Assembly: GCA_905331295.1 (NCBI GenBank)
Contig: CAJNYD010000106.1
Location: forward strand, 62,001 to 126,000
DNA length: 64,000 bases
DNA from: Rotaria socialis
Lineage: Eukaryota
Direction: 5' to 3'
Shown: positions 1 to 37,048 of the stretch, one piece after another
Layout of the letters: each line of letters starts with the position of its first letter
Numbering within the stretch: the stretch's first letter is position 1
Notes under the pieces: model-generated
The model's input: only the letters and a program-made list of their open reading frames with translations
What the model was told of the DNA's origin: nothing
The model's database searches: none
Made by a program: the position numbers and the translations under genes

Positions 1-281
1 GAACCAAGTTCAGCATAACAAAGGCCAGAAAGTAACGAAGCTATGCCAGCAATAATGAACGATAAAAGAACCCCAGGACCAGCTAAATCTCGTGCAACTG
101 TACCCGCCAATATGTAAATTCCAGCACCTAGTGTACTGCCAATGCCAAGCGTAGTTAAATCGAATACTGTTAAACATCGCCGTAATTGTGAATGAAGAGC
201 ATTGGTAGCTGAAATTCGTTTACGACGTGAAACAATAGCTAATGCACGTTGCATAATATTATTAGTTTCGATAGTTTCCAT
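1..281 (-). CDS. Cationic amino acid transporter (SLC7A1-4/CAT family, APC superfamily), N-terminal part; continues past the left edge of the window
   Basis: Manual translation from ATG at 281: METIETNNIMQRALAIVSRRKRISATNALHSQLRRCLTVFDLTTLGIGSTLGAGIYILAGTVARDLAGPGVLLSFIIAGIASLLSGLCYAELG. It contains the CAT signatures LRRCL..FDL..LGIGSTLGAGIY, AGP and GLCYAE.G. Confidence 0.93.
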   Translation of the reverse strand, partial: METIETNNIMQRALAIVSRRKRISATNALHSQLRRCLTVFDLTTLGIGSTLGAGIYILAGTVARDLAGPGVLLSFIIAGIASLLSGLCYAELG

Positions 282-3544: not shown

Positions 3545-6500
3545 ATGGCTGAACCATCGGAAACATCAGCAGGAAATATTAATATTAATTCCAGTTTCAC
3601 CACAGCGATTCAACCAACAAGAAAATTAGGCGGCCGTGGAACACCTCGCCGTAAAACACGTCGACTAAGTAATAATAATAATTATGCAGCATTAGTGGCT
3701 GCACGAACTCTAGAAACTAAATTAAAACCATTCCGTGCACAATACCAATTATATGATCAACAAGAATTATGTGATATTACAATTCTATATGAAGATGGTC
3801 ATGTTGATGTACAAAAGCAAGTTCGTATACATTCAACACGGCCAATGACCCTACATGAGATAGATTCATCGGAAACAGGTGTACAAACATATAATATTAA
3901 TGATCTTGATTCAGCATCCTCTGAATATTTATTTGGTAATCTTGATAGCTTAAAAGCTGAATTCTATTCTGAATCAATACCATCAGCAACACATGCAATA
4001 AAAACTGCAAATGCATCAAATTATTTTACTGGTTTACAACAGCGTCAATTTTATTCTCAACCATCTCATCACTATTTGAATTATACACCTTATCAATATT
4101 ATCCATATGGATATAATTCTTATGATAGTTATACGAATAATATTCGCCAAATATATGGTGATGTTAATGAAAAATCAGAAGATGAAGAAGAAAAAGAAAA
4201 AGGAAAAGAAGAAAACGAGCCAAATCCAGTATCAACAAAATCAAAAAGACGAAGACGTCGACATAAGCACCAACAGAAAACATCTGAACAATCATCATTA
4301 ACTGCACCGCCACCTCCTCCTCCTACTACTACTACTCAAGAAGATGAAATAATCATTGATAAGCCAATTGAACATCTCGAGCATGAAAATATCACAACAG
4401 AAAAACTAACGAAAAATAAACGACGAAGAATACGAAAGCCAAAAAAATCTCTTCCCATTTCTTCTGAAACCGGTGTAAAAATAGAAACTTCTATTAATAA
4501 TGAACAACCTGAACTAAATAACGAAGTCGTTTTGTCATCATCATCATCACCGCCGCTGCCGCCTATTCAATTTACTGAACAAGATTCTTTACGGGTTGAG
4601 TCTGTGAAGCAGCCGCGATTAATGTCAACGGAGTGCGTCAAACATGCGAATAGAAATACTTCTACTGAGCATGTTACGAACGTTCTAAATAAAAGAAAAA
4701 AGAAAGGAAAAAGAAAAGAAAAAGAAGAACTGCGACCAAGAAATTCTTCACGAACAACTACTGACATCAGTTATGATGACTGGACTTCAAACATTAGTGA
4801 CAGTACAAATATTGTTGACATACATAAAAACAATGATATACCCATAAAAAATTCATTACCTATCGCGAACAATGAAGTGATATCAAATGTTTCGAAAAAT
4901 CAAAACCCATCAGCAATAATTATCAGCGAACATGAAAACAAACCATTCAATCAAAATGTTTCTGTGCAGAAAAACAGAAGCAAAAATAAGTTTAATGATC
5001 AACAAAAAATAAAATTATCAAATAGTCAAAAACAATCATTATCGGATCACAGTGAAGTGAGTATTGTATATTTTTCTTTTTTGTTCTTCTTCAGTTGATT
5101 TTCTATAGACTAAATAGAGGCAAACATCTCTTCGTTCATATTTCTCGAAGGGCAAAAACAAGACATTAACGATATGATTAATGCTTTACTTTTATCATTC
5201 ATTTCATACAAAAATAATAATAAATAATATTTTTATATTGACCTTGATCTTTTTTTTATGATAGAGCTACTAAACATGCAAACTACTTATCGTTAGTTAG
5301 AAAAATGATTGATTAAAGCATGCTTAGTTTTAAAACCCACATAAAAATTGCAAGAATGTGTTTTCAGTCATATCTTTTTTCGTCTCGTAAGAGTTATTAA
5401 TATACTTTCAAGGTAAAAAAATGAAAACAGTTCCCTAATCTCAACTAATTCTCATTTAATCATGACTATTTACGAAAGAAGAGTCAAATAAGAAACAATA
5501 TTTTCTTGTTTTCACGTCAAGTTTAAGTTGTATTCAATTGCCAAATAGACAATCGTATCCATCGTATTGCTTTTTACAAGATAAGGATTTATATGACCGC
5601 ACACGCACAGAAAAACTTTAAAAACCCATAAACAACATTTTTCAAAAATAAAACATCGTTCTGCATCATTTAACGATTTTTATCTTAATAACGAACATAC
5701 AAATAAGAAAGTAATTTTCAAAAAAAAGCTTTGTTTTTTCGATACTATCAAATAGAATCGTAATAATGCCTTCATGAATTTGTATTGATCAGACTAAGAA
5801 ACAATAATTATTGACGCAAAACAAAAGAATATCTACGCTAATCAATCAATCAAATAGATACAGACGATATTATAAAAACAAATAAACATTCTTTGATTAG
5901 CAATTAAGCAACGATAGTCTTCAGGTTATATAACTGTATATTCATCATCGCATTGATCATTGCCCTCAGTAATTTTATATTCATACTGAGTTCATATCAC
6001 ACATGCAATTCCTGTTATGTATTCAAAAAGGAAATATAATTCATCAGTATATTTGTCACGTAGAGAAATTATCGCTAATGCATATAGTTCCTTTTCGTAT
6101 GTTTTACGAATATTTAAAACAGGTCGTTACCCTTTTGATTTAATATTATACATCATAAAATAATCTATTGCACGCTTCATTTCTTGAAAACAAAAGAAAA
6201 AATGAAGCAAAAAACAGAAGTTAAATGAGTTTTTTTGTTATAGACTAAAAATAGTCTACGAATATGAGTAAAACTTACACAAAACATATTTTTATTTAAC
6301 ACATCTGTTCCTATTTCTATTCTGTGCTCGATTTCTATTCTAGAACGTCAATACACCGCGAACATCTGATATTAACGAGATATCTTGTTCTAAGAAGAAA
6401 TTCGATATGAATGATGAACGATCAACGACTGAGTCATGTTTGAATAAAGTTCGCAATCAATTGTCATCAAATAACTCAATGTCAACGACGATAGAAGATA

Positions 6501-9500
6501 ATTCTGAACGATCACAGTCAACAACAACGCCAGCTGATATAGCCATCAGTGATGATTTATCAACGAAAGACAGTCACGCATCTGTTAACAGTCGCAAAGA
6601 CGAACATTGTCATGCAACATCACGATCTTCGTTATCCGACGCTGAGAATGTAACAGAAAACTTAACAATCACCAATAAAAAGCAATCACACACAGATTTA
6701 ACCGAAGCAACACATCATGAAGGAAGTCATTTGTTACACATCGAAAATATTAATAAACCAATCGGAACTCATTTGAATCCTGATGCACCAGATTTTAAAC
6801 CAAGTGATACTTCTTCAACGTATCATTCTGAATTGATACCTAGACATTCACAAAGACACGCAGCACATGTAGATTCGCATAGTATTCGTCATCCGCGTAC
6901 ACGCTATTATTCAGACACATATCATTATCCAGAATCTTCAAGTTCAATAGATACATCAACGATAAGACCATTATTATCAATTGTACCACAATATATTCCA
7001 TATGATCCACAATCATGGAGTGCAATAACTCAGTTGCCATCATCAGAAAATGTATGGCGTCCACATGCCTATAACGATGTATCAAATACAGCGTCATCAT
7101 ATTGTTCAAGACCGACTTGTCAAATTTATTCTCCGTTAATGCAACAACAACAACAACAGTCATTAAGCGACGTCAATCATTTGCATAATCAGCATCAAAA
7201 TAAACACGCAAGAAAGCGAACGTGCACTTTTTCTGGCCGTGCTTTGGTTCATACAAATCAAACAAAACCTATAAAGCGACAACGTTCTCTTTCCGGCCCT
7301 GAAACATCTTTGCAATCATCATTGTTGTTATCGTCATCGGAGCATCTTGATGGTATCCATTCTTTAACAAGAATTATGGTTGATATATTACGAAACATTA
7401 ATCAAGTCTCCGACGAACAAAAACAAAAATACGCATCAATGTCATCAACAAATTCAATTGCACATTCGCTAACTCAAAACAAATATCAACAGCCTTCTAG
7501 TCATTCTGATCGGTTTTACTTCGAAAACGAAGAGAAAAGTCAGAAATCTGATGAAACAGAAAATGACCTAGTTGATTACCATATATCTACGAAAGCTTCG
7601 CCGTTATTGCCATTACTGGTCGATAAAGCCACAGGTATTTTTTATGGTGATTAGTTCGTTTCTGCTTCATCTACTCAGGGTGAAGGTGAAAAGCGAATAG
7701 AATAGCGAGACAAAAACACAGAACAGAAAATGCCTGTATCATTGATTTTGCATTACATTTAAGAAAGAAAAATAGCGTCTTAATTTTTTTATGGATGATG
7801 ATGATGGCGATTATTAAGAATACTTGACGAGAAAAAAAACAAAACTACCGCACTTCACTGTATCGGAAGAATACGTAACACTTGACTATTGGAATACATT
7901 ATCGACATAAATATATATATTTATTTATTTTTTCTTTTTCTTTTTCTTTTTCTTTTTTTTTTCTTTTTCTTTCTCATTAATGTTAAGCAGGCGGAAAACA
8001 AAAGGAAGCTAAAAATATGTTTCACTGCACGCTTATGACTACTTAAAATTAGCTTTCTTTTTCATTAAGGCAACGGAGTACAGATCTCATTCGATTCTTA
8101 TATGACCCAGATTAATCTGTACAACGAATTTCTCTTCTTTTTGATGAACTATCAAATTTCTTTATTTGTATAGGAAAAGGCCGAGTTTAATATAAATGAA
8201 CATAGTTACATAGATTAAGATTTGATATAATAACAAAAAATAATCTCTGTATATCGAACATAATTGAACTTTATATATATATATATATGTATATATCTGT
8301 ACACGCAATCAGAGACGATCGTTGACAGATAGAATCCCCATTCAAACTCTTATGTAAAGCAATTCTTTTGTCATTGAAGAATGAATATTGATGAAATATA
8401 GGTTCGTTACTTGATTGTATCATCAATCGTTTTATGTTCGCATAGTTCATTACGATTGTCTTCGAAAACATTAAACGAATTAAAACTCATATGACAACAA
8501 TAGATACTGTATTTAACTATCAAACCAGTGTGTAGCTATGTATTAGATTGAAATATTTGCATTTTGGATATTATATCAAAAGGCAACGACGTTGAAAAAT
8601 GCGTGAGAGTCAATAAAAGAATGCACTGAAGCGTATAGAAAGATGTTACTCATAGAAGTAAAGGTGTCTGTACAATAGCCTGTCATTTGTAATTTTAGCT
8701 GACGGATTCTTTACTTTGAATAATGTCTTTTTGCGCTGTTGGTCTGTGTACGGTTGCATAACCTTTGTCATACTTATTAGTGAAATATGAAAATGATAGA
8801 TATCATTTTTTCTTCTTGTACAAGAAGAAAAACGAAAAAAGTAACTATTTAATGATAGAAATCATTAAATGTTTGTATGCACACAACACTAGAAATTAGT
8901 TTTCTTCATTTGATACTTCAAATATTTTTATCATCGATCGAGTGAATATTTCGATAAAGATCTATTTCGTCCCTTTTTCTTTTTATCGATCAGACCCGAA
9001 TGGACTCTTGAATATTGAATATCAGAAAGAAAAATTTAATGAAAAATTACATGCATATTTTTCTGTTTTAGCTATGCTTGGCGAGAATGAAACCTTGTCG
9101 GCAAATCTTGACAATAATCAACAAAAAAAAATATCATCATCGATGTCGAATGATACAAATGAAAAAAGCATAGTAAATACTTCGTCAACATTTTATGATA
9201 TTACCGATGCGAAAGAATCGATAAAGCCTACGCCTAATACTCTCCCAGGTATGCCTGCTGTTCGAAGAACTAATTGAATTGACGCTAACACATACATGGG
9301 TGTATGCACACATAACTTTTATTTTCGCTTCTTATTTATTATTAACTCTTAGGCAAACTGTAGTACGTAATATTAAAAATACACTTCGAGTCAAAACTAA
9401 TTATAAAATAGACACATCAATCGCTTCACTTTTATCCATCAGTATCGCGTTACATTCATAAATTTTTATTATTATTTTTTTTACTACTGCCTGTTCTTTT

Positions 9501-12500
9501 TACTATCTAGAAAACAATTTTGTTGTGTATGCATATATTTGTCTACACTTGTTGTATGTTTCTTTATTCTTTTTCTCTTATTCAGGACTTTCTACTGGAG
9601 AGCAAGAAAAAGAAAAATCCAGTAATCAAACTCGGTATATGGTAAAAAATCTTGCAGATGAAAATCAACACAAGCAGAACCAGACGAATTCTACACTTGC
9701 ATCATCATCACGTTCGTCTGAGCCAAGTAAATATTTTGAATTCTCTCCCAAAAACAAAATAACTTTATCAAAACCTAAAAAAATCAAGAGTAATTCTAGA
9801 AGAAAAACATAATGTACCCGCCATCGCAGATGACAAATGACGTTTTACAGTAATAGGAGACCTTCAAGCGCAGATACTCTCCATAGTAATATTGATGATG
9901 GTGTGATGAGAAAAAACAAAAGAGAGAAAGAAAAGGAAATCTACGAACAGAAGAAGAAAATTGGATAAGTAAAGAACGAGTATAAATACGAACAAATATG
10001 TACAATAATTCTGAAGGACGCAGAACAAAAGGCAAAGACGCAAAAAAAATGATTTCTTTTTTTATGGGATCGAACCTAGACCACTAGCTATAGCTATGAT
10101 ACGAAAATAGCAATAATAATAACAAAAAAAATACAAAATACTATTCATTATTTTTTTTCCCATTTGCTAATGTCCGTACTTATTTTTATTTCAATGTAAG
10201 AGAATGAATCTATAGAACATAATACTGATTTTGTTAAAAGGAAAAAATACAACAACATCATTATTGATGATAAATCGACGACAGACATATGTACCAGAAT
10301 CTAGCATGCCTATTGTGAATGATACTACTAGCATGTCGGCTGTAACTACTCATGATATTACGACAACATCTATCGAAAACGAGACCAACAACAACAACAA
10401 CAACAACAGCAGCACGAGTAAAAGGGATGAGCAATATGTACATGCTACGCTGAGTGGTGGTGAAAGAGCATCAATGGCTGCATTAGCAAATGTCGACGGT
10501 GGGGCCGAAAATGAAAGAGATGGAGAAAAGGGTGAAAGAGAAAAAAGAGAAGACGGGAATAGAAGAACGCCAACGTCGACGATGGCGAAAACGCAAGAAA
10601 AAACAGAGAGAGAAAGAGCAAAGCAAGCAAATAAATATATAGATTCAGTTACTTCGTTTACAAGCGAGCAGCACAGTTGCCCGAGCGTCGTCCGTCTTAG
10701 TGTTGACGACTCAATGGCGAACCGTGTCTCGGCGCCCTCATTTAATAAAAATAATAATCGTCAAAATATTTCATCGTCGAATAATCGTTCAAGTCGTTCG
10801 ACACTGACAACACACACGTATGCATCGACAAATACAGTAAATACAGAACCAACATATACAACAACACCGATAACGGGTGATCCTCGAACTCTTCATTCAT
10901 ATTATGTCTCATCACAAACGTATTGTCCACCATCGACGAGTCCGACTAATTCATTGACTCTTCATCATCGCGAATATGAACCTTCATATCCATCTATATC
11001 ACGTTATCGTACGCCATCTTCTACATCACCATATCGTAAGGCACATTACCTAGATGATTCGGATGAAGAAATAATCAATGAGGAAATACTTGAAATTACC
11101 GATATTAATCATTATCCAACATTAATCGAACGTTGGGGTGATGACGCGAAAACAGTGGTTAGAGAAGAAGGTGAATTAAAATTTGAAGATTTTGTTGAAT
11201 TTGAAGAAACTGATCCGACTGTTGTGGAAGAAATTTTCTATGAACTTGTCTATTCTGGTGATAATTTAAAAACATGCCGACAAATACATCGTTCACGTTC
11301 TGAATCAAGAAACTTTCGTAAAATAAAGAAACGTCGTACAAGACGAAAACGTCAAACATTAGATGGTACATCAACATTAACATCGCAACCAAGTTCAAGA
11401 GATACGAGTGGTACACGTTCACCATATAAAAATGATAATATAATTAGTCCTGAACGTTCAACTACACCAATACAATCGACACTATCTGATTCGTGGCAAT
11501 CAACTGGATTTCTTGCAGCTGATAAATCATCACTTGATGTATCTGTACGTAATCGTTCTGATGATCAAAATTATGTTAATTACGTACGAGTCAATGAAAG
11601 TGACCCTATTCGTTCACATACTCAAGTTCAACAAGTTCCACAAACGAGAATAGCAACTGGTTATCATTATCCATCGATTCCTATCGATACAAAACCTATA
11701 TCAGGAAGAAATCTATCTACAAATGAACGTGATTCTACACGTCGTGGTGACAATTTAAATGATACTGATCTATTTCGTTCACAACCACAAGTTTCACACA
11801 CAAGAATAACAACTGGTTATCATTATCCATCGATTCCAATCGATACAAAAGTTATAGCAGAAACAAACTTATACAATAATGAGCGTGGTTCTGCACGTCC
11901 TGACAATAATTTAAATGATACGGATGACTTCGTACCAATAATTAGTGAAGAACGAGGAGTAACAAAAATAAATATCACACCAACAAATAATGAATATCAA
12001 ACTAGCGACTTATTGTCAAGATGTCGAGCTGATGTAAATACAACTACATATGAAATTAGTTCTTCGGATGGTTTGTTAACATCTACTAGAACAACAGACA
12101 ATATCGAGCAATCAAGGACAACAATAAACGATCAAACATCTGCTCAGGGAGAAATCAACGACCGTAAGTTATTATTCTTGCTTGCCTTTGTTTCATCATA
12201 AAAGATCAAATAACATAAACATATTATAAATGTCTCTTACAAAAAGAAAACACTGAATTATAATAGACCTAGGACAATAAAATTAATCATTGTAACATTA
12301 TAGAAACCAAAAAAAATAAAAATAAAACCGATTCTTTAATATTGAACTTTGCAAGAAGAATGTCAATATTAGTTCTCAGTATAGCTATATGTCTTTATTT
12401 TAAAAATACTATTTATCATATCGTTGAAGAAACAGAATAATTAATTACTTATTTTTTTGTTTTTCTCAAGGTGAACTGGATTATTCTCATGATAGAGAAA

Positions 12501-15500
12501 AACAAATCAATAAAAAAATTGTGTCAACCGATGATGAACTAGAAAAAGATGATGAAGAACCATCGAGTACAACTGAACAAACAATAAAAGAAATATCAGG
12601 AAGAGATACAGATGAGGATGCATCATTTTCTGAAAATGAACAAATACCATCAGAATCTTTCAAATCAGATGAACAACAAAAAACAATTGAAGATTCTCAT
12701 CCATCATTGTTGTTATCATCATCAACAACAAATGAAAAACAAGATGATCACGAAATTCAACCGACAACAGCCGAGTCATCAATCAATGATTTAGAATCAA
12801 AGTCGCAATCGACATATTCAATTGTAGAACCATCCGAGACAACTATTCATCGAGAGGTAAATTTGTAAAATTCTTCTTTTTTTTGTTATATGCTTATTAT
12901 GGTTTTTTTTTCTTTCTTTCTTTCCTTTCCAGGACATTGAACAAATACAAACAACCGACATTGCTTTACCTAGAATTTCGATTGTAACAACGAAGTAAAA
13001 AGAACATTTTTTTTCTTATGCAAATTATGTTTTGCATGCCTCTTGTGTAGAACTTTATTGGAAAACATTGACACGCAACCTATTGAAATTAGTGTTTCTG
13101 AAGATGAAAAGATATCATCATCATTATCATCATCGTCGAAGGGCAAAACAAGTGACTCAATTGATGAAAGTAATCAAGATCTTCGAGCCTTCATGAACAC
13201 ACTTACAACTCATCTTATGCCTGGATTACCAACATCATTTGATGATGAAACCGAAGATGAACATTCGTTTGTGTCTGAAACAAAATCATCTGAAGAACTA
13301 GTAACACAAGATGAGCAAGTTCTTAATTATATTCCACGAAAATCGATTGAAGATACTAAAGACATATTCGATCAATCATTCGAGGAATTTTCCTTAGAGA
13401 AAAATGATGAAATCAAGTAAATTTTAAAATAACTTAATTTTTTCAATGAACTATTGTGTTTTTTTTTAAATTGTTATTAAGAACGGAAATTGATGAACAG
13501 CAAGACAAAAGCGAACCATCTTCTTCGTTAATTCCTACAATGGAAACTAAAACTTCAACATTTGAACAATCAGATTTAGATAAACAAAGTTCAACAACAC
13601 ACGAAGCAATAATTTTATCGAAAGATTCTCTAGTCAATGTTGTTGAACAAATGAAATCTCAAGATAAACAACATTTAGATCAAGATGAACCTGATAGTTT
13701 TTCTCAGGATTCTTCGACTACAACAACTGAAATATTTGCAACTCAATTACAACCAAAACCAATACTAATTTATGATACAGAAGACGTAACACAAAAGCAG
13801 CCACTAACTGTTAATGATGTTGCTCAAGTTACTAATGAAACGAATTATTTTCAATCTCCTCTTGAGAAAGAAAAAATACTTACAGATACTCAGGAATTCA
13901 TCGAACCGATAACACAACACGATACATTACTATCAGTTGAATCAACAATTGAAAGTAATCAATATGTCATCAAGCTAGACGAAGTACCACAACAACAACC
14001 AGTATCTAGTACTTTATCTGGAACTGATGAAACCATCGAAAAATCAACATCGCACGATGATCAATCATCAGTTGAATCTCAATCAAAACAAGAAGTCGAT
14101 GAGCAAAAACCATTCGAATCTTCAGTAGATATTGTTCGTCAGATGGGTCCTGCACTGCAAATTATTCGTCTTCCATCGACTGATAATAAAACCGAAACTA
14201 CGCATATTTTGCAACAAGACATTGAAAAGTCATTAGTTGACTCTCATGTAGATATCGTATCAACCAGTGAAAGCATTCCCAGTGAACTAGTGACAACGAA
14301 AGAAGATCAACCAGAACATATTTCATACGAAACTATGACAGAATCTATTCGTGAAATTATCAAAGAAATTACAACTCCTTCAGAACAAACATGTGACATT
14401 ACTATGCAACAACAACAAGATGAACATGTTCCTGAAGTGCAAACGTAAGTTATTTGATATGATCATTTTTTTTTCATAATTGAAAATTTCAATTTTTCTT
14501 AATAGTACATCGTCAACATCACTCGATTTACCTGCCACAGAAACTACTTGTCCTAAAAGAGTTGAAGATCATGTTAACGAACAACTTACTACAAACACTC
14601 TTACAACTACTTCGCAAATTACAGACCAAACAGTTTCTGAAGATTATCAACTGACTGCTGACGATCTTGAAAAAACAGGTGAAACCGATCGTCCCTCTTT
14701 GGATGTGTTAACAGAAGCTGCTCGTGAAATAATAACCACAACAACAACTACTTCTATTGATCAGCCATCAGTTATAATAAAAACAGATGCCGTTGAAAGT
14801 GTCGATTTTGTTCCATCTCCATCAACAACATTAGAAAAAATTAACAAAGTAGCAATACCTTTAGATGAAAAAGAAATATCTTTTGAAATACTAACAAAAA
14901 CAACAACAGCAGAACAAAACACATTTGTTGATAAGTACGAAGAGAAACCATTGATCGAAAATCTTGCGACAATTATCCATGAAGATTTGCCAACTACTCA
15001 CCAAGATCAAGAGCAATATGTTTTAGAAACTGTCGAAGAGTCTGTTCAACAACACGAAACACCGAAATTTGATCAACCTCAAATTCAAGAAATCATTCAA
15101 ACAGTTACCGATGAATTTCAACCAGAAACTCATATAGAAAAACATGAAATTGCCGCGGAAAATGTTATCATACCAGATAATGTTCAACAAACATCTGATT
15201 CGCAAATCAAAGCAGAAACAAGCTCGGAACATATAGATTTAGATGAACCAACAAGAACAACATTTACTACTGCAGTTGAAAGCACTAATGAACAGCCAGA
15301 AACAACAAGTCTTTCATCTCTAAATTCGGGAAAAAATGCTCCAGAAACTCTAGTTCTGCCAATTGCTGCTGATCTTCCAATAGTCGATCCTACTGTAAGC
15401 CCGAAACTCGAGAAGGAACAAACAATTCCAAAAACATTAATCGATTCATTTGGTCAAATTACTGGAGCATTCGTAAGAACACTTTCTGGTACAGCACTAA

Positions 15501-18500
15501 AAACCGAAGAAAACTTAATAGAAAAAACAGATATTAATCTAGAAGCACAACAATCACTTAGCACATCATCTTTAGTCGAATCGGTCGAAATTTCGACATC
15601 AGATAATCAACAAGAATCAATCAAAGATAACAACCTTGGACAAGATTCATTGAAAGTGTTGAGTGAAGTGTGTTCAGCAGCTCTCGCTACACCCATTACT
15701 TTGGATGTTCCAACAGCTGATCACAAACTAGACTCAACAATTGAGCCGGAGCTATTAGTTCCAAAGCCATCTATAGAATCACTTACTCAAATTATTAAAC
15801 AAGCTACCACAATTGAATCCGCAGAAAGGAAATCCTATGCTGAAGAAACACTACATCCGCATATTAAAGAAGATGCAACTACAGAATCACCACCAACATC
15901 TCCTGGAGACGTCACAAATAGAGATGAAGTTGAACACGTGAAATCAACAACAGTGATTCAAGCACCCTCGTCCGATATTGTCGCTGAATTAAATGAACCA
16001 TTTGACAAACTTCAAACTTCCCTGAAAACAACACCGTCAGAAGAAAACCCAGAAGACAAAAACGAAGAACAAAAGCGACACGATGAACAAATTTCAATGC
16101 AACCATTAACAGAAGCTCTTCCTGAAATTCTTACTACATCAGCTGCACCACATCAACCCACTGTAGAACAAATCCTACTGGAAGCAACTAAAAATGAACA
16201 TATATTGGAAACACCAACAATCCCATCGATCACCGAAACAACAAAAACAATCCTGATAGTAACACCGACAGAACTTACTGTACTCGAAGAAGAGAAAATT
16301 AAACCAGCCGATCTGAAAGATGAAGAATTACAACATCCGATCGTCACATCATCAAACATTCAAATTAATGACGAAATCATCCAGGACGATCCACAAAAAC
16401 CAGTCACAGAGTCTACAACAAAACCAGCTGATCATGTTTCTACAGAGGCACTCACTGAAGCACCTCGTGAAATAATTGCAATTCCAGTCACTCTACATCA
16501 GCCAATTGACACACGCGAGGAAGTACAAGCTATTGAAAATCAAACAATAGTGGAAGAGCCATCATCAGAAACTATCATTGAACTTAACAAACAACTTCAA
16601 GAAATTGAATCCTCATTATTTGGAACACCTGATGAAGAGAAGCCAGCACCAGTCGATATCCAACATGATGATAAACAACAATTGCACACAACACCAACTA
16701 ATATTGAAACCACAGAAGATATCACTACACAAGTTCAACAACCAGCAATAACAGAGCCTACAACAGAATTAGCTGATCATGTTTCAACAGACGCACTCAC
16801 TGAAGCTGTTCGTGAAATAATTGCAAAGCCACTTATTGCTGATATGCCAACAGAGCAACAGCAAACAACTCAAGCATCATCGTTGTCATCCATCATCGAA
16901 ATACCAACATTTACAGAACTGACTACGACACCTGAGGAAACAATTCAACCTGTCGATGTGAAACAACAACAATTACAACAGGCAATTGCAACATCACCGC
17001 ATAGTGGAATTGTTGACCAAATCACAATGGAAAAACAACAACCGGTGTTTGTAGAGCCTACAACAGAAGTAGCTGATCGTGTTTCTACACAGGCACTCAC
17101 TGAAGCGGTTCGTGAAATAATTGCAACACCACTTATTGCCAAAATACCAACACAAGAACACGTTGAAGAACGAACAATTGAAACTGAGGCAATAACGAAA
17201 AAGTCATCATCCGAAACTATCGGTGAACTTAAAACAGAAATTGAATCCTCATTATTTCAAACACCTGATGAAGGGAAGCCAGAATCAATGCATATCCAAC
17301 ATGACGATGAACAACAATTGAGCACAATACCAACCAATCTTGAAACCACAGAAGATATCACTACACAAGTTCAACAACCAGGAATCACAGAGCCTCCAAC
17401 AGAATTAGCTGACGATGTTTCTACAGAGGCACTCACCGAAGTTGTTCGTGAAATTATAGCAAGGTCAGCTATTGCAGATATACCAACAGAAGAAAACGTC
17501 GAACAAAAAACAGTTGAAAGTCCTACGATTGTCGAAATACCAGCACCGGCAGAAATCATTAACACGCATGAAGAAATAATAGAACCCGTCGCTGTCAAAG
17601 AAGAGCAATTACTCCAAGCACCTATAACATTAGCGACTCCTGATATTGTTGAAGAAATCACGAAGGACGATCAACAACCATCATTCAAAGAGCCAACAGC
17701 CGAAGCAGCGGATCACGCTTATACAGAGGTACTCACTGAAGCTGTGCGCGCAGTAACCGCAACGCCAGTCATTGCTGATTTACCAAAAGAAGAACATGTT
17801 GAAGAACGAACTATTGGAACACCAACGATTGTCGAAATACCTGCATCGGTAGAAGTCACTACAACGCATGAAGAGAAAATCGAACTTGTTGCTGCCAAAG
17901 AAGACGAATCACAACAAGCACCACTCACACAGCCTACAACAGACTTAGCTGATCATGTTTCTGCAGAGGCACTCACTGAAGCTCTTCGTGAAATAATTAA
18001 AACGCCACTTATTGCTGATATACCGAAAGAAGAACACGTTGAACTAACAACATTTGAAACTCCGTTGATTCTCGAAATGCCTGCACCAGGAGAACTTACT
18101 ACAACACATGGAGAGAAGCTCGAACCTGCCGCTGTGAAAAAAGAAGAATCCCACGAACCAGTCGCCATGTCACCGCCTTCTGAAATTATTGAAGTAATCG
18201 CAAAGGAAGATCATCAAACGCTAGTTGTGGACCCTTCAACAGAATTAGCTGATCGTGTTTCTACACAGGCGCTCACTGAAGCTGTTAGCGAAATAATCCC
18301 AACACTAGTTATTGCAGATATACTGGCACAGCAACATGTTGAAGAGCGAACGATTGAAGCTGAGACAATAACGAAAAAGTCATCATCCGAAACTATCACT
18401 GAAATTAAAACAGAAATTGAAGAAATTGAATCCTCATTATTTGGAACACCTGATGAAGAGAAGCCAGAATCAGTCAATATTCAACATGATGATAAACAAC

Positions 18501-21500
18501 AATTGCACACAACACCAACTAATATTGAAACCACAGAAGATATCACTACACAAGTTCAACAACCAGCAATCACAGAGCCTACAACAGAATTAGCGGAACA
18601 TGTTTCTACAGAGGCACTAACTGAAGCTGTTCGTGAAATAATTGCGACGCAGATTATTGTTGATATACCAAAAGAAGAGCATGTTCAACAACCAGCATTC
18701 GAAACTCCATTGATTGTCGAAATACCAGCATCTGTAGAAGTGACTACAATATCTGAGGACAGATTCGAACCGGTCGCTGCGAAAGAAGAGCAATTACTAG
18801 AAGCTACCTTTACATCAGCGGCTCCCGAAATTGTTGAAGAAAGCACCAACGAAGATCAAAAACCAGCAGTGACAGAGGCTACAACAGAAGAAACTGATCA
18901 TGTTTCAACAGAGGCACTCACTAAAGCTGTTCGTGAAATAATTGCAAGGTCAGGTATTCCAGATGTACCGACCGAAGAACACGTTGAACAACGAACGATT
19001 GCAGCTGAGACAATAACTGAAGAGCCATCATCCGAAACTATTGCTGAAATTAAAACAGAAATTGAAGAAATTGAATCCTCATTATTTGGAACACCTGATG
19101 AAGAGAAGCCAGAATCAGTGGATACCCAACATGATGATAAACAAGAATTGCACACAACACCAACCCATATTGAAACCACAGAAGATATCACTCCACAAAT
19201 TCAACAACCAGGTGTCACAGAGCCTACAACAGAATTAGCGGATCATGTTTCTACGGAGGCACTAACTGAAGCTGTTCGTGAAATAATTGCGACGCAGATT
19301 ATTGTTGATATACCAAAAGAAGAGCATGTTCAACAACCAGCATTCGAAACTCCATTGATTGTCGAAATACCAGCATCTGTAGAATTGAATACAACATCTG
19401 AGGAAAAATTCGAACCTGCCGCTGTGAAAGAAAACGAATTACAACAGGCAAGCGTGACATCGCCCGTTTCTGAAATTGTTCCCGAAATCACAAATGAAGA
19501 TCAACAACCGGTATTGGCAAAGCCTACTACGGAAGTAGAGGATCATGTTTCTACTGAGGCACTCACTGAAGCTGTTCGTGAAATTATTGGCTCACCAGTT
19601 ATTGTAGATATACCAAAAGAAGAGCATGTTGAACAACCAACATTTGAAACTCCGTTGATTGTCGAAATACCTGCACCGGCAGAAGTTAGTACAACAGATG
19701 AAACGAAAACCGAACCTACCGCTGTCAAAGAAGAGCAATTACCAGAAGCTTCCCTCACATCCGCGGCTCCTGAATTTGTTGAAGAAATCAGGAAGCATGA
19801 TCAACAACCAGCAGTCACAGAGCCTACTACGGAAGTAGAGGATCATGTTTCTACCGAGGCACTCACTAAAGCTGTTCGTGAAATAATTGCAAGGTCAGTT
19901 ATTGCAGATGTACCAACAGAAGAACACGTTGAAGAACGAATAATTGAACCGCCAATGATTGTCGAGATACCTGCACCGGTAGAAGTCACTGCAACGCATG
20001 AAGAGAAAATCGAACTTGTTGCTGCGAAAGAAGACGAATCACAACAAGTTTCCGTCACATCAGTGGCTCCTGAATTTGTGGCAGAAATCACGAAGGAAGA
20101 TCAACAACCAGCAGTCACAGAGCCCACAACGGCAGCAACTGATTATGTTTCAACAGAGGCAGTCACTGAACCTGTTCATGAAATAATTGTAACGCAGGTT
20201 ATTACTGATATACCGAAAGAAGGCCATGTTGAACAACCAGTATTTGAAACTCCATCGATTGTTGAAATACCAATATCTGTAGAATTGACTACAACATCTG
20301 AGGAGAAAATCGAAGCTGCCGCTCTCAAAGAAGAAGAATTACAACAGGCAATTGCGACATCATCTGATAGTGGAATTGTTGAAGAAATTACAAAGGAGGA
20401 TCAGCAGCCAGCAGTCGTAGAGCCTACCACAGAAGCAGCTGAGGATGTTTCTACTGAGGCACCCATTGAAGCTGTTCATGAAATTATTGCTACGCCAGTT
20501 ATTGTCGATATACCAAAAGAAGAACATATTGAAGGCCGAACAATTGAAACTCCATTGACTGTCGAAATACGAGCACCAGGAGAAGTTGCGACAACAGATG
20601 AGGAGAAAATGGAACCAGTCGCCGTGAAAGAAGAAGAATCCCACGAACCAGTCGCCATGTCACCGCCTTCTGAAATTGTTGAAGTAACCGCAAAGGAAGA
20701 TCATCAACCGCTAGTTGTGGAGCCCTCAACAGAATTAGCTGATCGTGTTTCTACACAGGCACTCGCTGAAGCTGTTAGTGAAATAATCCCAACATTAGTT
20801 ATTGCTGATATACTGGCACAGCAACATGTTGAAGAGCGAACGATTGAAGCTGAGACAATGACGGAAAAGCCATCATCAGAAACTGTCGTTGAGCTGAACA
20901 AAGAACTTGAAGAAATGGAATTGTCATTATTAGGAACACCTCTCGAAGATAAGCCAGAATCAATGGATATGCAACTTGATGTTGAAGCGCAATTGAGCAT
21001 GACACGAAGCAATATTGAAACTTCAATGGATATCAGTACAGAAGATCAGCAACCACCTGTTGTAGAGACGATAACAGAAGTAGATGATCGTGAAATAATT
21101 GGAACTGCAGTTTCTGTTCAATTACCAACAGAGGAACGTGCTTTAGAAGCAACTGTTGAAAATGCATCGATTGTCGAAACGGTAATATTTACAGAAGCTA
21201 CTACAACAGACGAGGAGAGAACTCAACGAGCGGGCGCAAAAGAATTAGAGTTACCACAATTAATTGTCTCATCGGCTGATGCTGATAGTGTGGAAAACGT
21301 TACAGAAGAGTGTCATCAAACAGAAGTCTTAGAGGCGACGAAAGAAGTAGCTGAACGTGTTTCTTCCGACGCAGTTGTCGACGCTGTTTGTGAGATTGTT
21401 GGAACACCAGTTATTGTTGAGTCCCAGCAAGTCGAGAATACGGTACAGGAAATATTCGAAACGACGTCATTGCCATATTTTCATGAAGCTCCTGATCAGA

Positions 21501-24500
21501 TGGAATCAGTTACATTTGCAGATATAATTGCAGCAGAGGAAGAAATGAATAAATCCTTGGATCGTATACAAAAAGAAGTAGAGCAATCAACAAGTGTACC
21601 AGTAGTTGCTATGGTCAGTACAGAAGAAATCAAAACAGAAGACGATCAATCAGTAGTTGCAGACAAGCCGAACGAAGACGTTGCTGAAGAAATGTCTTGG
21701 GATGCATTAACTGGAGCAGTTCGTGAAATTCTCAGTACAACAGTTATTGCTGATCTTCCAGTAGTCGAGGATAACCTTCAACAAACACCTCAAACTGAAG
21801 CAATACCAGAAACACCTTTGTTGTCATCGCTTTCTGAAAGTAAAGATGAACTCAAAACAATGTCACCATTGGAGAAAACTACACTAGAAGAAGAAGAACG
21901 AACAGAACCATCGGATACTAAACAACAAGAATTACAAGAATCAAGTTTGATACCATCTATTACTGAAATTGCAGTAGAAAGTAGTACAGAAGAACAAGAA
22001 GCTGAACGAATCGCTTCCGAAACATTAAGTGAAACAGTTCGTCAAATTCTTGCAACACCAGTAACTGTTCATCTTCCAACTGTAGAACACTCGATACAAG
22101 AAGCTACTGAACATGAACCATCACTGGAAAGAACATTATCAGCATCTCTTGATGAGGCTTCTGATCAACTCGATAAGTTATTGTCTTCAACAGATAGTTT
22201 AGCTGTAGAAAAAATAACGGAAGTCGAAGTGAGAAAGCATGATGAAGTACAACAACCAACGATAACATCATTTACTACACAGGAAATAGAGGTAAGAACA
22301 ACAGAAGATCAATCATCATCAAACGCTGACACGAAAACAGAAGAAGTCGCTGAACGTATTTCTTCGGAAGTGTTGAATGATGTTGTCCGTGAAATTATTT
22401 CTACACCTGCAACTGTTGAGATTCCAGCGATTGATATTATACCCGACAGCAAAATTACAACTATTGAAGGAGAAGCGGACAAAACATCCGATGAAACAAT
22501 ATCTTCAGTTCTAGAACAAGAAGTACCAGTTGTTCTACCAGCTGAAGTAGTAACAGAAGAAAAACTTCAACTAACAGATACGACGTTAACTGAAGAACCA
22601 CAGTTAAGTGCGCCTGCGTCAGTTATGGAAATTAAGGCCGAACCAACAGCAACAAAAGATGCAATGACTGAACATGAAGTTGAATCATTGCCATTGAAAT
22701 CATCAAATGAAATTGTTCCAGAAACGACGGATACATCAGTTAATGCAAATTTGTCTTTTGTTGATGATAAATCAAAAACTACTGAACAGATCGAACAACC
22801 AGTCATACTTTCTGAAAGTAGTGCCATGGAAAAAAGTGAGGCTATTCCGGAAAATGTTATTTCTATTACAACAATAACTACCACAGCTCACACGGAACAA
22901 ACACCAGCTGAAAAACAAAGTCCATCTAACGACCAAAAGGAAATAGAAGAAGAAGAAGACGAAGAAACTTTGTCAACAGATCTATCACGAGAAGGCGTCA
23001 ACCAAGTTTCAACTGCACCAATACAAACTGATATATCGTTGGTTGAAACTAGTTTTATAATTTCTGCTGATACAATAGATGTAAATATTGAGAAAAATGT
23101 TGAAAAACAATTAGATTCAATTACAGCAACAAGCGTAACTGAACATGTTGAAAAACATGTTACAGGTGCGAATGCAATGTATTTCGAAGACACAACTCAT
23201 GACATTGTAACAATACCAACCGCTAATGATAGAATCGAAATTGTAACTCCGGTTGAAGAAGTAAAACAGCCAACATATACGTCAATTGAAGTCGTTCATG
23301 AAACTATTACAGTAACACCCGAAGTGGATTCGGACAAGAAAGAAATATCATACGTTCAAACTCAGCTACGTGAATCTGACGAAGTTATGTCTCTTCCAAA
23401 TATAATTACATCGTCTGAAAGGGAACCAGTTCCAGTTCAATCAACTCCTACAGTTATTAGTGAACAACCAGATCAAGAAACTTCTCTTCAAGATAATGTT
23501 TCAAGTTCTGAAATGAAAATTGTGTCCAGTGAATCAGAGTCACCAGTTCATCCATTGGATTTTACGCTATCTGCTTCTTCGAAAGAGGAATTGTCATCTC
23601 AACATGATAACGAAATTATTTCGCCAGCATTATATGGCACAATAAAAAATCTTGTTGATGATGCCATTGTTGATGCATGTTGTATGCTTGAACAAACAGT
23701 TCCTGATCAAATCACCGATCAATCACTAACCTCGACATATACCGTATCAGATGAATATCCTAAAGAAGTTACTCCTGATATAAATTTAATAAATGATCTT
23801 GAAACTAAAGCGGTGGATGATTATTCTTCAATATCTGGTCTAACAAATATCGTCAATGATTTAGTTAAAATTTCAAATGAAGCATCTCCAGAATCGTCTA
23901 TTTCAAATGAAGATAATAAAGTTATTGTTTCTCCAAAATCAGATTTTCATGAACAAATTCAAACAACTGAACTTCCGAATATTGCTGATGCAACTACAAA
24001 AACATTGAATATTCAAACAAGTTTTCCGGAACAATTCGATATCTCAGAAGATACACCTTTACAACGAGCCAGTGCCGTTAAACCAACTTTTGTAATTGGT
24101 GATCTAGATCAAGATATTACAGATGAAGAACCACCAACATTTTTTGTGCCGGATACTCCAACAAATTCAGAAGCAAACTTTATAGCACTATACGAACATC
24201 GACATTTCGTATCAAATGCAGACGAAGAATCATCGTCACCGTTCACTCCTGCAGATAGTCAAACATCACTTGAATCAGTGACTCAACTAGAAGAGAAAAC
24301 ATATGTATCAGATTCGCCTTTGGCATATTTTGAGCTACAAGAAAAACGTCATACATTAATGTCTCCTGAAAAATCAACTGAATCTGATAAAACAGAACAA
24401 TCTACTTCTTCTTTAACCACATGGACAACAATGGAACCGTTTATTGCTAATGAAGAACAACAAAAGAAACCAGACATATCAGATATTAATCTTGATGATC

Positions 24501-27500
24501 GTTCCTATGAATATGCTCGAAAATTTGATTTAGAATCTCCTTCAGTTGTATCACATTTGCCTTCAAGAGAATATCATCAAGTATTCGGTGTATCCGAAGA
24601 TATCATTAAAACAGTTGATGATATGACAGATCATGTTCAACAAGCACTCTCAACAGAACTAGAACAAAATCAACAACCGGTTACTTCAGATGAAATATCA
24701 AGTCTACTCTCTGAATCGAATGAAAACTTAGCATCCGAAGATATTCAATCTGCATTGTTCTCTACAGATGCACCTGTTTCCGAGAGTGTAAAAAGAATCA
24801 CAGAAGCACTTGCAGCACTTGAATTCGATCTACGCGCGCAGCAAGATAATATACAATTACATGAAAGTTCATTTCTAGAAACAGATGAACATGTAGTCGA
24901 TGAAAACAATATAGTATCTTCTAAACTTGCAACAGCACTAACTGATGATATCGAACAAGCATTGAAAGATCATCCACCTGTTTTTTCACCTGAAAAGGAG
25001 TTCAGTAATGAAGATTTATTACCAGCAGAAATAAAAAGCGAAAATGTCGGTGAAATTACATCAACGGTTGAATTAGATTCACAATATTCGAAATTACAAG
25101 ATCTAATTGATAGTTTAAAAGAACCATTGGACGATTTACAATCATCTTCATCATCAATTGTTGAACACCAATCAATAACAACAGACATTGAAGAAAAGAC
25201 GGATGATGATTATCATCTAGAAGATCGATATGATACGCTTATTGACCATATTACAAAACTTGAAGAAGCTACACATGAAAGTCTTATTCCTGATACTAAT
25301 CAAGAGGTTGTTCTATTACCACAAGATGATAAATCAGTTGACGATAATATGACCAGTGATGATCTAGTTAAAACAGTCGAAGAAATATTTGCTTCACCTG
25401 TCTGTTCAGTTATTAATCCATATGAAAAAATAGCCAGTGAAGAAGGAATCAACTATTCAAATCTTGCAGTGACTCTCGAACAAATGATCGCACAAACGCA
25501 ATATCCAACAAAATTCACCAAACTAGCAGCACCAACTGACTTAACTTTATCTTCAAATGAACTGGAACAAAAACAACAAGAAGAAACACAAGTAGTAGAA
25601 TCTCACAATGAAATACTTACTTCAACATCCATCGATCAAAAAGAAATATTGAATCAAGACGATTTACCGGAGACAGAAAAAATACAACCATCAAGCATTT
25701 TTGAAAAAGGTAGATCAGCCATTACCGATGCTCTGACACTACTTACTGATGCTACCCTACAATCGAGTACAACTGATGAGATAACTAGTTCGGCAGATTC
25801 GAGTTTCCACGACAACAGTGATCTTCAAGCAAAATTTATAGCAACTATTACGGAGACAACCACAACTACTCAACCAGTAATTACATCTGAAGAAGTAATA
25901 AGCTCACCTGAAACAAAAGATGAACATATCGTTCAGACATCATTGAACGACAATGAAATAAAACCAGAAGACAAACAAATACAAACATTGGCAACAGATG
26001 TATTATCAAGTTCAGCTATTTTATCATCAAGTATGATTCCATCGACAACAACAGAAGTAAATGATACAGAAAAACATGTTGAGAACTCAGAAATCGCATC
26101 GAGCCCAGCAGCAGGTTACTTTAGTAGTAGTGATGTTTATCATGCATACAAACAACCAATTGAACCTGTAATTGAAAAAGAACCAACAACGGAAACTCAC
26201 GATGAAGTCACTTTAGCCAGTCAAGTACCAATCATCGATGAAGAAAAATCAGCTCCAGTCGTAGTCGAACAAGAAGTTGACGTTTTAAAATCAGTTTCAG
26301 AAGAAAAAGAGAGTGTCGATGAAGATACATCATCCGTTGGACTATTGGAAACATTAAAAAGTTATTTACCAGCATCAATTCGATCAACAGAAATAGAAGA
26401 GACCACTTCTGAAACGCCTAGCGTATCAAATACGACAGACGAAGATACTACTACGTCGTCAATGACTGGCTCGATGGTAGCTTCAGTATCAGAAGAACAT
26501 TTGACTGAAAGTGTAGAACCATTAATTGAAGCATCCGAAAAATCATCAATGTCCAGTCCAGTAGCAGGTTATTTCAGTAGTAGTGATGTTTATCATGCTT
26601 ATAAACAACCAATTGAACCGGTCTTTGAAGAAGAACCAGAATCATCCAGTCTGATTGAAAAAGCCACAACAATTGTTAGTAGTATCATTTCTAGTCTCAC
26701 AAGTGCTGTAACAACAACAGACAGTACACAAGATTCGATTTCTACTGTTGATGAAACACTTTCACATTCAGCTGTAGTAGAAGATGAAACTAAAATTTTG
26801 AAACCATTACCCGACGAACAAAATATCCAGCAAGAATCGTTATCGTCACCAATCATGTTAGAAGAGGTTAAAACTGTATTACCATCCGATATTTCGTTAA
26901 CAGCAACAGATCAAATTACTTCTGAAGAACCAGTAGTATCATCGTCGTTAGAAGAAGTCGTAGTAGCGGATGTTCCTGGTGAAGATCTTAGTAAATCAGA
27001 GCAACAAAAAATAGAAACGATGAAACCGGTAGAAATTTCATCACCAGTGACTGGTTACTTCACCAGTAGTGATGTTTACCATGCATACAAACAACCCATT
27101 GAGCCCGTCTTGGAAAAAGAACCGGAATCACCCAGTCTTGTTGAACAAGTCACAAACATTGTTAGTCATATTATCACTGATTTCACAAGTCATTTGCCAA
27201 CATTATCAACAACTGAAACAGAACTCACCAGCGAACCATCGATCACTGAAATAGAGATGTCAGCTCCAATTGCAGTCGATGAAGAAATAATCGCACTAAA
27301 ATCAACTCTAGATGAACAAGAGACTGCGCCAGAGGAAGCATCTTCAACAGGCCTATTAGAAACATTGAAAAGTTATTTACCAGCATCAATGCGATCAACA
27401 GAACTAGAAGAAATCATTTCTGAATTACCAGCTGAGTCAACAAAGATTGATGAAGAAACTGTGGCATCTTCTAGTACTCCTGCAGTAGTCACTTCAGTGT

Positions 27501-36500: not shown

Positions 36501-37048
36501 ATGACGATGATATCGATGATGATAGTCAAAGTAATGAAAACAATAAAAATAATAATAATAATAATACTTCAAATAATTTCGATGAATGGGGGCATTTTCT
36601 TGACTATGATGATGAACAAAACATAATTCTATCATCTGAATCGACATCATCGAGAATTCTTCAACCACGTGTATTAACATCCTATGAATGTTCATATGCA
36701 CGAGAATTAGATGATGATACACTTGTAACTGACGCTGATCGTTCACATTTAATAGACTATACTCAGCATTCATATGAACATGAACGACAACGCTATGGTG
36801 ATTTTGCGTGTACAAGCGATGATTCTAGTGTGACACAATCGATGACTAATCCTTCTTCAATATTGACAAATTCAAATATACCGAGACCCTCAGAAACATT
36901 TCAGAGATGGCGAAATCAATCAAATCGTGATCGAGACGAATCGGATTCACGCGTAACAACCATATCAACAGAAGATCAAAATGACGATGAAATATTTGTA
37001 TCACATACAGACGGCGGTCTTAGTCGACGAGTGAGACCAACACAATAA
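3545..37048 (+). CDS. Giant (about 9,795 aa) acidic, repeat-rich, mostly disordered protein with an N-terminal NAC-beta/BTF3-like domain and a PAM2 motif; 11 coding exons
   Basis: Hand-spliced GT-AG exons: 3545-5056, 6344-7634, 8994-9248, 9586-9726, 10241-12163, 12471-12856, 12933-12994, 13051-13416, 13482-14444, 14506-28546, 28601-37048. Junction phases 0,1,1,1,1,0,2,2,2,0 all match, and the total of 29,388 nt is divisible by 3. Exons 6-11 are joined by short (54-76 nt) introns and are very secure; exons 5 and 6 are joined by a 307-nt intron. Linkage of exons 1-4 across longer introns is less certain. Confidence 0.8.
11600..11930 (+). repeat. Two-copy 156-nt (52 aa) internal duplication containing TGYHYPSIPIDTK
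   Basis: ACTGGTTATCATTATCCATCGATTCC occurs at 11656 and 11812. Confidence 0.9.
16085..22400 (+). repeat. Coding tandem array of about 21 units (mostly 300 nt/100 aa and 345 nt/115 aa), core DHVSTEALTEAVREII
   Basis: Core starts at 16085, 16430, 16775, 17075, 17411, 17711, 17951, 18251, 18596, 18896, 19241, 19541, 19841, 20141, 20441, 20741, 21086, 21353, 21686, 22004 and 22352. All spacings are multiples of 3. Confidence 0.95.
26080..27860 (+). repeat. Second coding repeat family: 4x SSP(V/A)(A/T)GYF(S/T)SSDVYHAYKQPIEPV and 3x GLLETLKSYLPAS
   Basis: Copies of the first motif lie near 26098, 26549, 27038 and 27548; copies of the second lie near 26339, 27350 and 27812. Confidence 0.92.
29740..30550 (+). 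repeat. Coding minisatellite, 33-nt (11 aa) unit in alternating 22-aa pairs, e.g. KLQQDEPSVEV-KSQQDQPLEEI
   Basis: Recurrent GACCAACCGTTGGAAGAAAT and CCATCAGTAGAAGTGAAA-like units; roughly two dozen degenerate 11-mers. Confidence 0.9.

What the first reader, a model, noticed from the sequence alone, without database searches (positions are those of the whole stretch)
3620..3961. Divergent NAC-beta (BTF3/ICD-1)-like domain at the N-terminus of the giant protein
Seen: RKLGGRGTPRRKTRR...KLKPF...CDITILYEDGHVDVQKQVRIHST...YLFGNLDSLKAE. Established: NAC-beta proteins carry RIGGKGT(A/P)RRKKK, the ribosome exit-tunnel anchor, followed by a NAC barrel (EEVNM..D.G.V.HF.NPKVQ.S) and ..QLG...L.SL. The order and spacing match by eye. 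Canonical NAC-beta is only about 150-200 aa. Inference: a NAC-beta paralogue is fused to a huge disordered tail. This is reminiscent of vertebrate skNAC, a giant-exon muscle isoform of the alpha subunit, but here the beta subunit is involved.
Basis: partly seen in the sequence, partly recalled or inferred. Interest (0 to 1): 0.88.

Follow-up and report, generated by a model that had tools for sequence, protein, structure and literature searches.

The report
Rotifer ribosome-chaperone offshoot with long tail
A bdelloid rotifer gene encodes a roughly 940-1,000-residue, mostly low-complexity protein whose front end keeps the ribosome-gripping motif of the chaperone subunit NAC-beta on a likely, badly eroded NAC fold; the giant reading frame behind it also makes its own leader-capped RNA, so a giant fusion is possible but unproven.

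Summary
The motifs are there (3620-3961), in a Rotaria socialis protein. LGGRGTPRRK is invariant in 24 of 24 homologues. A NAC-beta origin is likely but not proven. Profile comparison with canonical NAC-beta gives probability 85-92%, E about 1e-6, mostly from the anchor. Without the anchor, a gapless 60-column match in the expected register remains (12 of 4,000 shuffles), at only 4-11 identities of 60. Pfam NAC is not hit and fold searches are inconclusive. 'N-terminus of the giant protein' is the weak part. The representative gene model is 940 aa. An RNA contig shows the exact 23-nt rotifer spliced leader on the exon at 9072, so the 8,834-aa downstream frame has its own mRNA. A 9,769-aa fusion is open on paper, but no contig bridges it. 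NAC-beta with an ~800-aa disordered tail is already known in flies (uncNAC-beta, PMC9249742), a closer analogue than skNAC. New here: extreme barrel divergence and a conserved PAM2-type motif. Verdict: new variant of a known kind, moderate interest.

The parts
3545..5056 (+). First coding exon (acceptor ends 3538, ATG 3545, GT donor after 5056); residues 1-504
   Evidence: an RNA-type contig of a relative covers 3902-4189
3626..3664 (+). NAC-beta-type basic ribosome anchor, LGGRGTPRRKTRR
   Evidence: L28-K37 invariant in 24 of 24; canonical form IGGKGTPRRKKKV
3698..3877 (+). Helix plus predicted beta-meander; aligns without gaps to NAC-beta helix 2 and the barrel strands
   Evidence: 4-11 identities of 60
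3878..3961 (+). Last strand and two short predicted helices; position fits the end of NAC-beta, sequence score does not
   Evidence: negative scores
4020..4160 (+). Moderately conserved Y/Q/N-rich stretch ending NIRQIYG
   Evidence: 44-57% conserved
6344..7654 (+). Second coding exon: ends the 940-aa form (stop 7652-7654) or splices at the in-frame donor after 7634
6773..6802 (+). PAM2-type (poly(A)-binding protein) motif LNPDAPDFKP
   Evidence: Pfam PF07145 E 0.008, 16.3 bits, under the 20-bit cut-off; identical in 6 of 6 long homologues checked; consensus LNxxAxEFxP (PMC7356810)
7343..7393 (+). Second conserved island, HLDGIHSLTRIMVDILR (helix-like, unassigned)
   Evidence: 4 of 4 long homologues printed
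9072..9277 (+). Switch exon: acceptor AG 9070-9071 takes the spliced leader (ATG 9074); in frame with the donor at 7634; donor after 9248, or read-through to a stop at 9275 (1,002-aa form)
9074..37048 (+). Giant acidic S/T/E/P-rich frame, 8,834 aa over 9 exons, all introns GT-AG; no Pfam domain at the curated cut-offs in the four large ORFs scanned
   Evidence: joints 9726-10241 and 12163-12471 seen in RNA contigs

Best explanation
This is likely a bdelloid-specific paralogue of the chaperone subunit NAC-beta: a ~940-1,000-residue protein whose invariant basic motif would dock it beside the ribosome exit tunnel, while its long low-complexity tail would recruit poly(A)-binding protein through a PAM2-type motif, and the giant frame downstream has its own leader-capped mRNA. 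Shown: the motif, its conservation, the tail composition, the PAM2-type motif, the spliced leader at 9072, and an ordinary NAC-alpha in the same species. Inferred: descent from NAC-beta (about 0.8), ribosome binding through the anchor (about 0.65), pairing with NAC-alpha through the eroded barrel (about 0.4), PABP binding (about 0.6). It would act as a specialised ribosome-bound scaffold linking translating ribosomes to mRNA tails, not as the housekeeping NAC.
For: Anchor invariant in 24 of 24 and placed near the N-terminus as in NAC-beta; that motif is the ribosome anchor of NAC-beta (bioRxiv 2025.07.29.667405, passages). hhalign against canonical NAC-beta: probability 84.6-91.7, E 7e-6 to 8e-7, 58-70 columns running from the anchor into the barrel. 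Anchor removed: best gapless 60-column window falls in the same register, reached by 12 of 4,000 column shuffles and 19-30 of 2,000 block shuffles; reversed query -0.8 against 9.2; hydrophobicity correlation 0.37 against at most 0.20 at 35 other offsets. A NAC-alpha profile picks the same register (p 0.08), a joint alpha+beta profile too (hhalign P 0.011). AlphaFold2 gives helix, four or five strands, two helices (pLDDT 53 and 66). With the anchor, Foldseek lists 7 chains of NAC-ribosome entries among its top 36 of 416, five labelled NB/Nb, one at rank 1 (E 0.79). PAM2-type motif. R. socialis NAC-alpha is an ordinary 245-aa protein (P0340). Spliced leader: 23 of 23 letters match the published rotifer leader, are absent from the window, and the same leader tail heads a bdelloid NAC-alpha transcript contig (L041).
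Against: Pfam NAC is not among the families listed at E<=10 for the domain alone or the members scanned. The PDB sequence searches returned no NAC chain. Anchor-free hhalign against NAC-beta alone is not significant (P 0.09-0.12), and at 30-45 columns a reversed query scores close to the real one. Core identity is about 11%. The Foldseek NAC rows are non-significant (TM 0.15-0.23) and came only from the model that included the anchor. RRKKK is changed to RRK[TAIV][RL]R. The C-terminal helices have no sequence support. The ESM Atlas and the PDB sequence searches lean weakly to BTB. PAM2 is under Pfam's cut-off. A canonical bdelloid NAC-beta was not retrieved.
Confidence: 0.55

Rival explanations
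1. One reading: one giant (9,769-aa) NAC-beta isoform made by cis-splicing 7634 to 9072 and onward, a beta-subunit counterpart of skNAC, existing beside the shorter forms.
For: An 11-exon path with ten GT-AG introns gives an unbroken 9,769-aa frame, identical to model P0035 at 3,296 of 3,301 residues. Models from three other or same-species records join exon 3 to the 9072 exon in frame (P0030, P0008/P0043, P0011). The Met at 9074 is not conserved in the Silwood1 or A. vaga models while the exon stays open (chance about 0.01 for 67 codons at local intron composition), so it is probably also used as an internal coding exon.
Against: The exon takes a spliced leader. In the A. vaga model and one Silwood1 model it ends in a conserved read-through tail (GTPDARAAN, GTPAVRAVN; here GMPAVRRTN), giving 938-1,069-aa proteins. 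Only 1 of the 6 cluster members that start at this Met runs into the giant exons (P0035). Gene models are predictions.
Confidence: 0.25
2. Only the anchor peptide is NAC-like (captured or convergent, or a basic localisation signal), and it sits on an unrelated small domain, possibly a degenerate BTB domain.
For: ESM Atlas feature hits are BTB at 0.80-0.83, under the tool's 0.9 lead level. KLHL3 BTB matches at E 0.27-0.29. A 30-column window matches a BTB profile at p 0.02. The significant NAC-beta scores depend on the anchor.
Against: Against a 5-sequence BTB control (Pfam-confirmed) the match does not extend: p 0.19 at 45 and 0.52 at 60 columns, against 0.008 and 0 of 500 for NAC-beta; that control is small. 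Both models put strands where BTB has helices (BTB layout recalled). An 8-residue G-rich motif, not just a basic patch, matches at the right distance from a register-matched core.
Confidence: 0.15
3. It is NAC-beta-derived but no longer pairs with NAC-alpha: the barrel is vestigial or self-pairs, and the protein only uses the anchor to occupy ribosomes (for example in mRNA storage during drying).
For: The core has drifted to about 11% identity while bdelloid NAC-alpha is ordinary; fly long-tailed paralogues keep 53-54 of 60.
Against: The core is still strongly conserved within bdelloids (58-77% per block) and keeps the hydrophobic pattern, so it is folded and constrained. No expression data under drying were available.
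Confidence: 0.3

Closest known systems
Drosophila uncNAC-beta (CG11835) and its fly orthologues
   Same: N-terminal NAC-beta anchor and domain followed by about 800 aa of disordered sequence (PMC9249742, passage); orthologues of 494-1,188 aa were recovered here.
   Different: The fly core keeps 53-54 of 60 identities to ordinary NAC-beta, the rotifer core 7 of 60 to the fly paralogues; no tail similarity at E<0.01; no PAM2 pattern in 11 of 11 long NAC-beta proteins scanned. Likely an independent origin.
Drosophila germline gNAC-beta (betaNACtes)
   Same: Paralogue keeping the charged motif with an extended C-terminal disordered region; shown to sit on ribosomes and pair with an alpha subunit (PMC9249742, parts 1-2 of 7 read).
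   Different: Its tail extension is only about twofold; it has a dedicated alpha paralogue, none of which was seen among the best 120 bdelloid-led NAC-alpha hits.
Canonical NAC-beta / BTF3 (PF01849)
   Same: Anchor motif, order and spacing of helix, strands and helices.
   Different: Pfam NAC not detected; anchor-to-helix linker about 7 residues longer; 940 aa or more against about 160-200.
Vertebrate skNAC
   Same: A NAC subunit gene tied to very large low-complexity exons.
   Different: skNAC is the alpha subunit with a ~6-kb exon, 2,187 aa, and is proven (bioRxiv 2025.10.23.684272, abstract and introduction). Here the giant exons lie downstream, have their own leader-capped mRNA, and fusion is unshown.

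Membership tests
NAC-beta (BTF3) | N-terminal GGKG[TS]xRRKKK ribosome anchor | tested here: met
   LGGRGTPRRK in 24 of 24; 4-9 (mean 7) of 13 identities to 110 canonical chains; last two lysines replaced
NAC-beta (BTF3) | Pfam NAC domain (PF01849) above the curated cut-off | tested here: not met
   No NAC hit for the domain alone or listed members at E<=10; the canonical control scores 84 bits
NAC-beta (BTF3) | Remote sequence homology of the barrel, independent of the anchor | tested here: inconclusive
   Gapless 60 columns: p 0.003 (column shuffles), 0.01-0.015 (block shuffles); hhalign P 0.011 (alpha+beta) but 0.09-0.12 (beta alone). Pairwise values, not database-corrected
NAC-beta (BTF3) | NAC half-barrel fold | tested here: inconclusive
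   Secondary structure fits, but pTM 0.27-0.31; no significant structural match
NAC-beta (BTF3) | Heterodimer with NAC-alpha | tested here: inconclusive
   See Tried and rejected
NAC-beta (BTF3) | Binds ribosomes through the anchor | not testable with these tools
   Needs co-sedimentation or cryo-EM
NAC-beta paralogue (not the housekeeping copy) | A separate canonical BTF3 in the same genome | not testable with these tools
   No genome held; none named Rotaria or Adineta among the 120 best hits to an insect query
skNAC-type giant isoform | One mRNA joins the NAC domain to the giant exons | tested here: inconclusive
   Frame open; spliced leader at 9072; the 7634-9072 joint lies in a part without contig cover
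BTB/POZ domain | Profile match over the whole domain with helices after strand 2 | tested here: not met
   No Pfam BTB hit; match to a small control profile fades beyond 30 columns; strands predicted
PAM2 motif | LNxxAx[E/D]FxP, conserved in a disordered region | tested here: met
   LNPDAPDFKP in 6 of 6 long homologues; D for E; Pfam 16.3 bits, under the 20-bit cut-off

The most novel reading that the evidence does not exclude
One locus uses a switch exon to choose between cis-splicing and spliced-leader trans-splicing, yielding a ~1,000-aa ribosome- and PABP-binding NAC-beta, a free 8,834-aa scaffold, and a 9,769-aa NAC-beta fusion that would tether ribosomes to a titin-sized disordered protein, more than four times the length of skNAC.
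Probability: 0.18. Interest if true: 0.8.

Novelty: new variant of a known kind. Interest (0 to 1): 0.4.

Why it matters
If right, animals have built long-tailed NAC-beta paralogues at least twice (flies, bdelloids), and the rotifer one has drifted so far that Pfam misses it, so similar proteins may be hidden elsewhere. A ribosome-exit anchor plus a PAM2-type motif in one chain would link the tunnel exit to the poly(A) tail; a search for BTF3 + PAM2 motif + NAC found no paper. The switch exon is a testable case of cis- versus trans-splicing deciding whether two proteins are fused. It also warns that gene models joining these frames may be wrong.

Tried and rejected
Complex prediction, R. socialis NAC-alpha 69-148 with the domain: no answer (runs 0.03, 0.49, 0.02; alignments not used; controls not folded); neither for nor against. 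Fold searches: VIA wide and second look on the anchor-containing model found nothing useful; on the anchor-free model neither NAC nor BTB appears among the rows shown by Foldseek or VIA (best Z 3.3). PDB sequence searches gave only weak unrelated hits. A second Atlas search without BTB families gave no usable hit. RNA: no listed holder is on record as RNA; X1 and X2 are guessed RNA, contigs only; no contig covers 7156-7634 or bridges 5056-6344 or 7634-9072, which shows nothing; contig depths were not used to rank exons. X2's 21 extra letters before 9070 fit the leader by length only, as the letters were not displayed. Viral scans for NAC motifs gave none or no NAC-alpha. One scoring block failed and was redone; exon ends were off by 1-7 bases and corrected. 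Rows dropped: 34 of 161 NAC-beta segments with over 25% gaps; 17 of 127; 21 of 26 loci not used for the BTB control. Earlier-finding look-ups returned nothing. PMC2825203 passages were not informative; PubMed 15788744 is not held.

Full report
Source and gene. The window is AT-rich eukaryotic DNA. The frame from ATG 3545 is 100% identical to a 940-aa Rotaria socialis protein, P0001. All 24 hits of 597 candidates (lengths 297-2,000 aa) are named bdelloids (6) or unnamed environmental proteins (18). P0001 is exon 3545-5056 plus exon 6344-7654. Cluster members disagree on the 3' end: 940, 1,167 and a partial 3,301 aa that runs into the giant exons.

The observation. The quoted motifs are present. 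L28-K37 (LGGRGTPRRK) is invariant in 24 of 24, and residues 21-140 form a conserved block before a low-complexity tail. The motif occurs once in the window's six frames.

Is it NAC-beta? Pfam found no NAC domain, and PDB sequence searches found no NAC chain. I obtained a canonical NAC-beta from locus L037 (Pfam 84 bits), 120 close relatives and 150 more diverse ones. hhalign gave probability 84.6-91.7 and E about 1e-6, aligning the anchor, the next helix (ENKL to DKKL) and the first strands (CDVTILYEDG to EEVNMFKDDG). A domain-only HMM scores the best canonical chains at 20-25 bits. With the anchor removed, hhalign falls to P 0.09-0.12 against beta and 0.011 against a joint alpha+beta profile. 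A gapless profile score over 60 columns still selects the same register: 12 of 4,000 column shuffles and 19-30 of 2,000 block shuffles reach it, and the reversed query scores -0.8 against 9.2. At 30-45 columns the reversed query comes close. Identity there is 4-11 of 60. The final helices have no sequence support. AlphaFold2 predicts helix, four or five strands and two helices at low confidence (pLDDT 53 and 66, pTM about 0.3). Foldseek ranks NAC-entry chains first and at six further places in the top 36, none significant, and only with the anchor present. I put NAC-beta descent at about 0.8; the fold and dimer are unproven.

The BTB rival. The Atlas (0.83) and KLHL3 (E about 0.3) point weakly to BTB because of an LCD.T strand. 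Against five Pfam-confirmed BTB domains the match holds for 30 columns (p 0.02) but not 45 or 60 (p 0.19, 0.52). The control is small, so this lowers the rival without excluding it.

Is it part of the giant protein? On paper it can be: 11 exons with ten GT-AG introns give 9,769 aa. RNA-type contigs confirm joints 9726-10241 and 12163-12471, and a loose end supports 9248-9586. But the X1 contig over 9070-9248 begins with letters found nowhere in the window. With the AG at 9070-9071 they give the published 23-nt rotifer spliced leader, 23 of 23 (PMC3795323 Table 1, passage; leader length and frequency also in PMC1925144, passages). A bdelloid NAC-alpha transcript contig starts with the same leader tail. 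The X2 contig has 21 extra letters at the same place, which were not displayed. So the downstream frame has its own mRNA, with an ATG two bases in (9074; 8,834 aa). The exon is probably also used in cis: the donor at 7634 is in frame, the Met is not conserved in Silwood1 or A. vaga models, and three species share a read-through tail ending in a stop, which gives 1,002 aa here. The best reading is a ~940-1,000-aa NAC-beta-like protein upstream of a separately headed giant protein, with the full fusion possible (about 0.25) but unshown.

The tail. Residues 141-940 are 43% S/T/P/Q/N, with basic clusters, a Y/Q/N-rich stretch and LNPDAPDFKP at 6773. That motif is identical in 6 of 6 long homologues, matches the PAM2 consensus LNxxAxEFxP with D for E (PMC7356810, passages) and hits Pfam PAM2 at E 0.008, under the cut-off.

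Mechanism (inferred). [quoted passage not shown] The rotifer motif would do the same. The eroded core may pair with the ordinary 245-aa NAC-alpha of this species. The tail would bind PABP and other partners. None of these bindings was shown here.

What is known. Drosophila has germline NAC-beta paralogues with longer tails and uncNAC-beta, a NAC domain plus about 800 disordered residues (PMC9249742; parts 1-2 of 7 and passages). Its knockdown gave a mild flight phenotype (PMC7534622, one passage). Ten of 150 representatives were 450 aa or longer with an N-terminal anchor, several named uncNacbeta. The fly cores are near-canonical and their tails unrelated to the rotifer's, so the architecture is known and this looks like an independent, far more diverged version. 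skNAC is the alpha subunit with a ~6-kb exon. Searches for bdelloid + nascent polypeptide (2 papers, neither on this by its listing), Adineta + BTF3 (0) and BTF3 + PAM2 motif + NAC (0) found no description in the held library.

Verdict. A real, conserved, probably NAC-beta-derived domain; new variant of a known kind; the giant-fusion claim is unproven and partly undercut. Interest 0.4.

Noticed in passing
window 9074-37048: The giant frame carries repeated short motifs: 12 STEALTEAVREI-type units, SDVYHAYKQP x4, GLLETLKSYLP x3, GFxVVxxRK x4 after acidic runs, and one FFAT-like IFFDAPV. No Pfam domain at the curated cut-offs. Unexplained.
   Followed up: partly
window 9070-9072: An apparently internal acceptor takes the rotifer spliced leader, so exon 9072-9248 may serve in both cis- and trans-splicing.
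   Followed up: partly
L039, L069, L079, L111, L072: Metagenome NAC-alpha frames with 217-500 residues upstream of the conserved motif, against about 100 in most; possibly skNAC-like long forms in unnamed animals.
   Followed up: no
L037:339-884: An insect BTF3 (97% to a Papilio protein) sits on a 1-kb contig of a Microbacterium assembly: likely contamination.
   Followed up: partly
window 54380-56159 (minus): Frames with an ADP-ribosyltransferase-like domain (E 2e-4) and TPR repeats.
   Followed up: no
window 1-281 (minus), 41851-44463, 50975-51955 (minus), 58724-59341: Neighbours: amino-acid permease start (E 0.0015), an Hsp70-12-like gene (motifs recalled; no Pfam or PDB hit), a short-chain dehydrogenase and CFAP69.
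   Followed up: no
window 7343-7393: Conserved helix-like island HLDGIHSLTRIMVDILR in the tail, unassigned.
   Followed up: no
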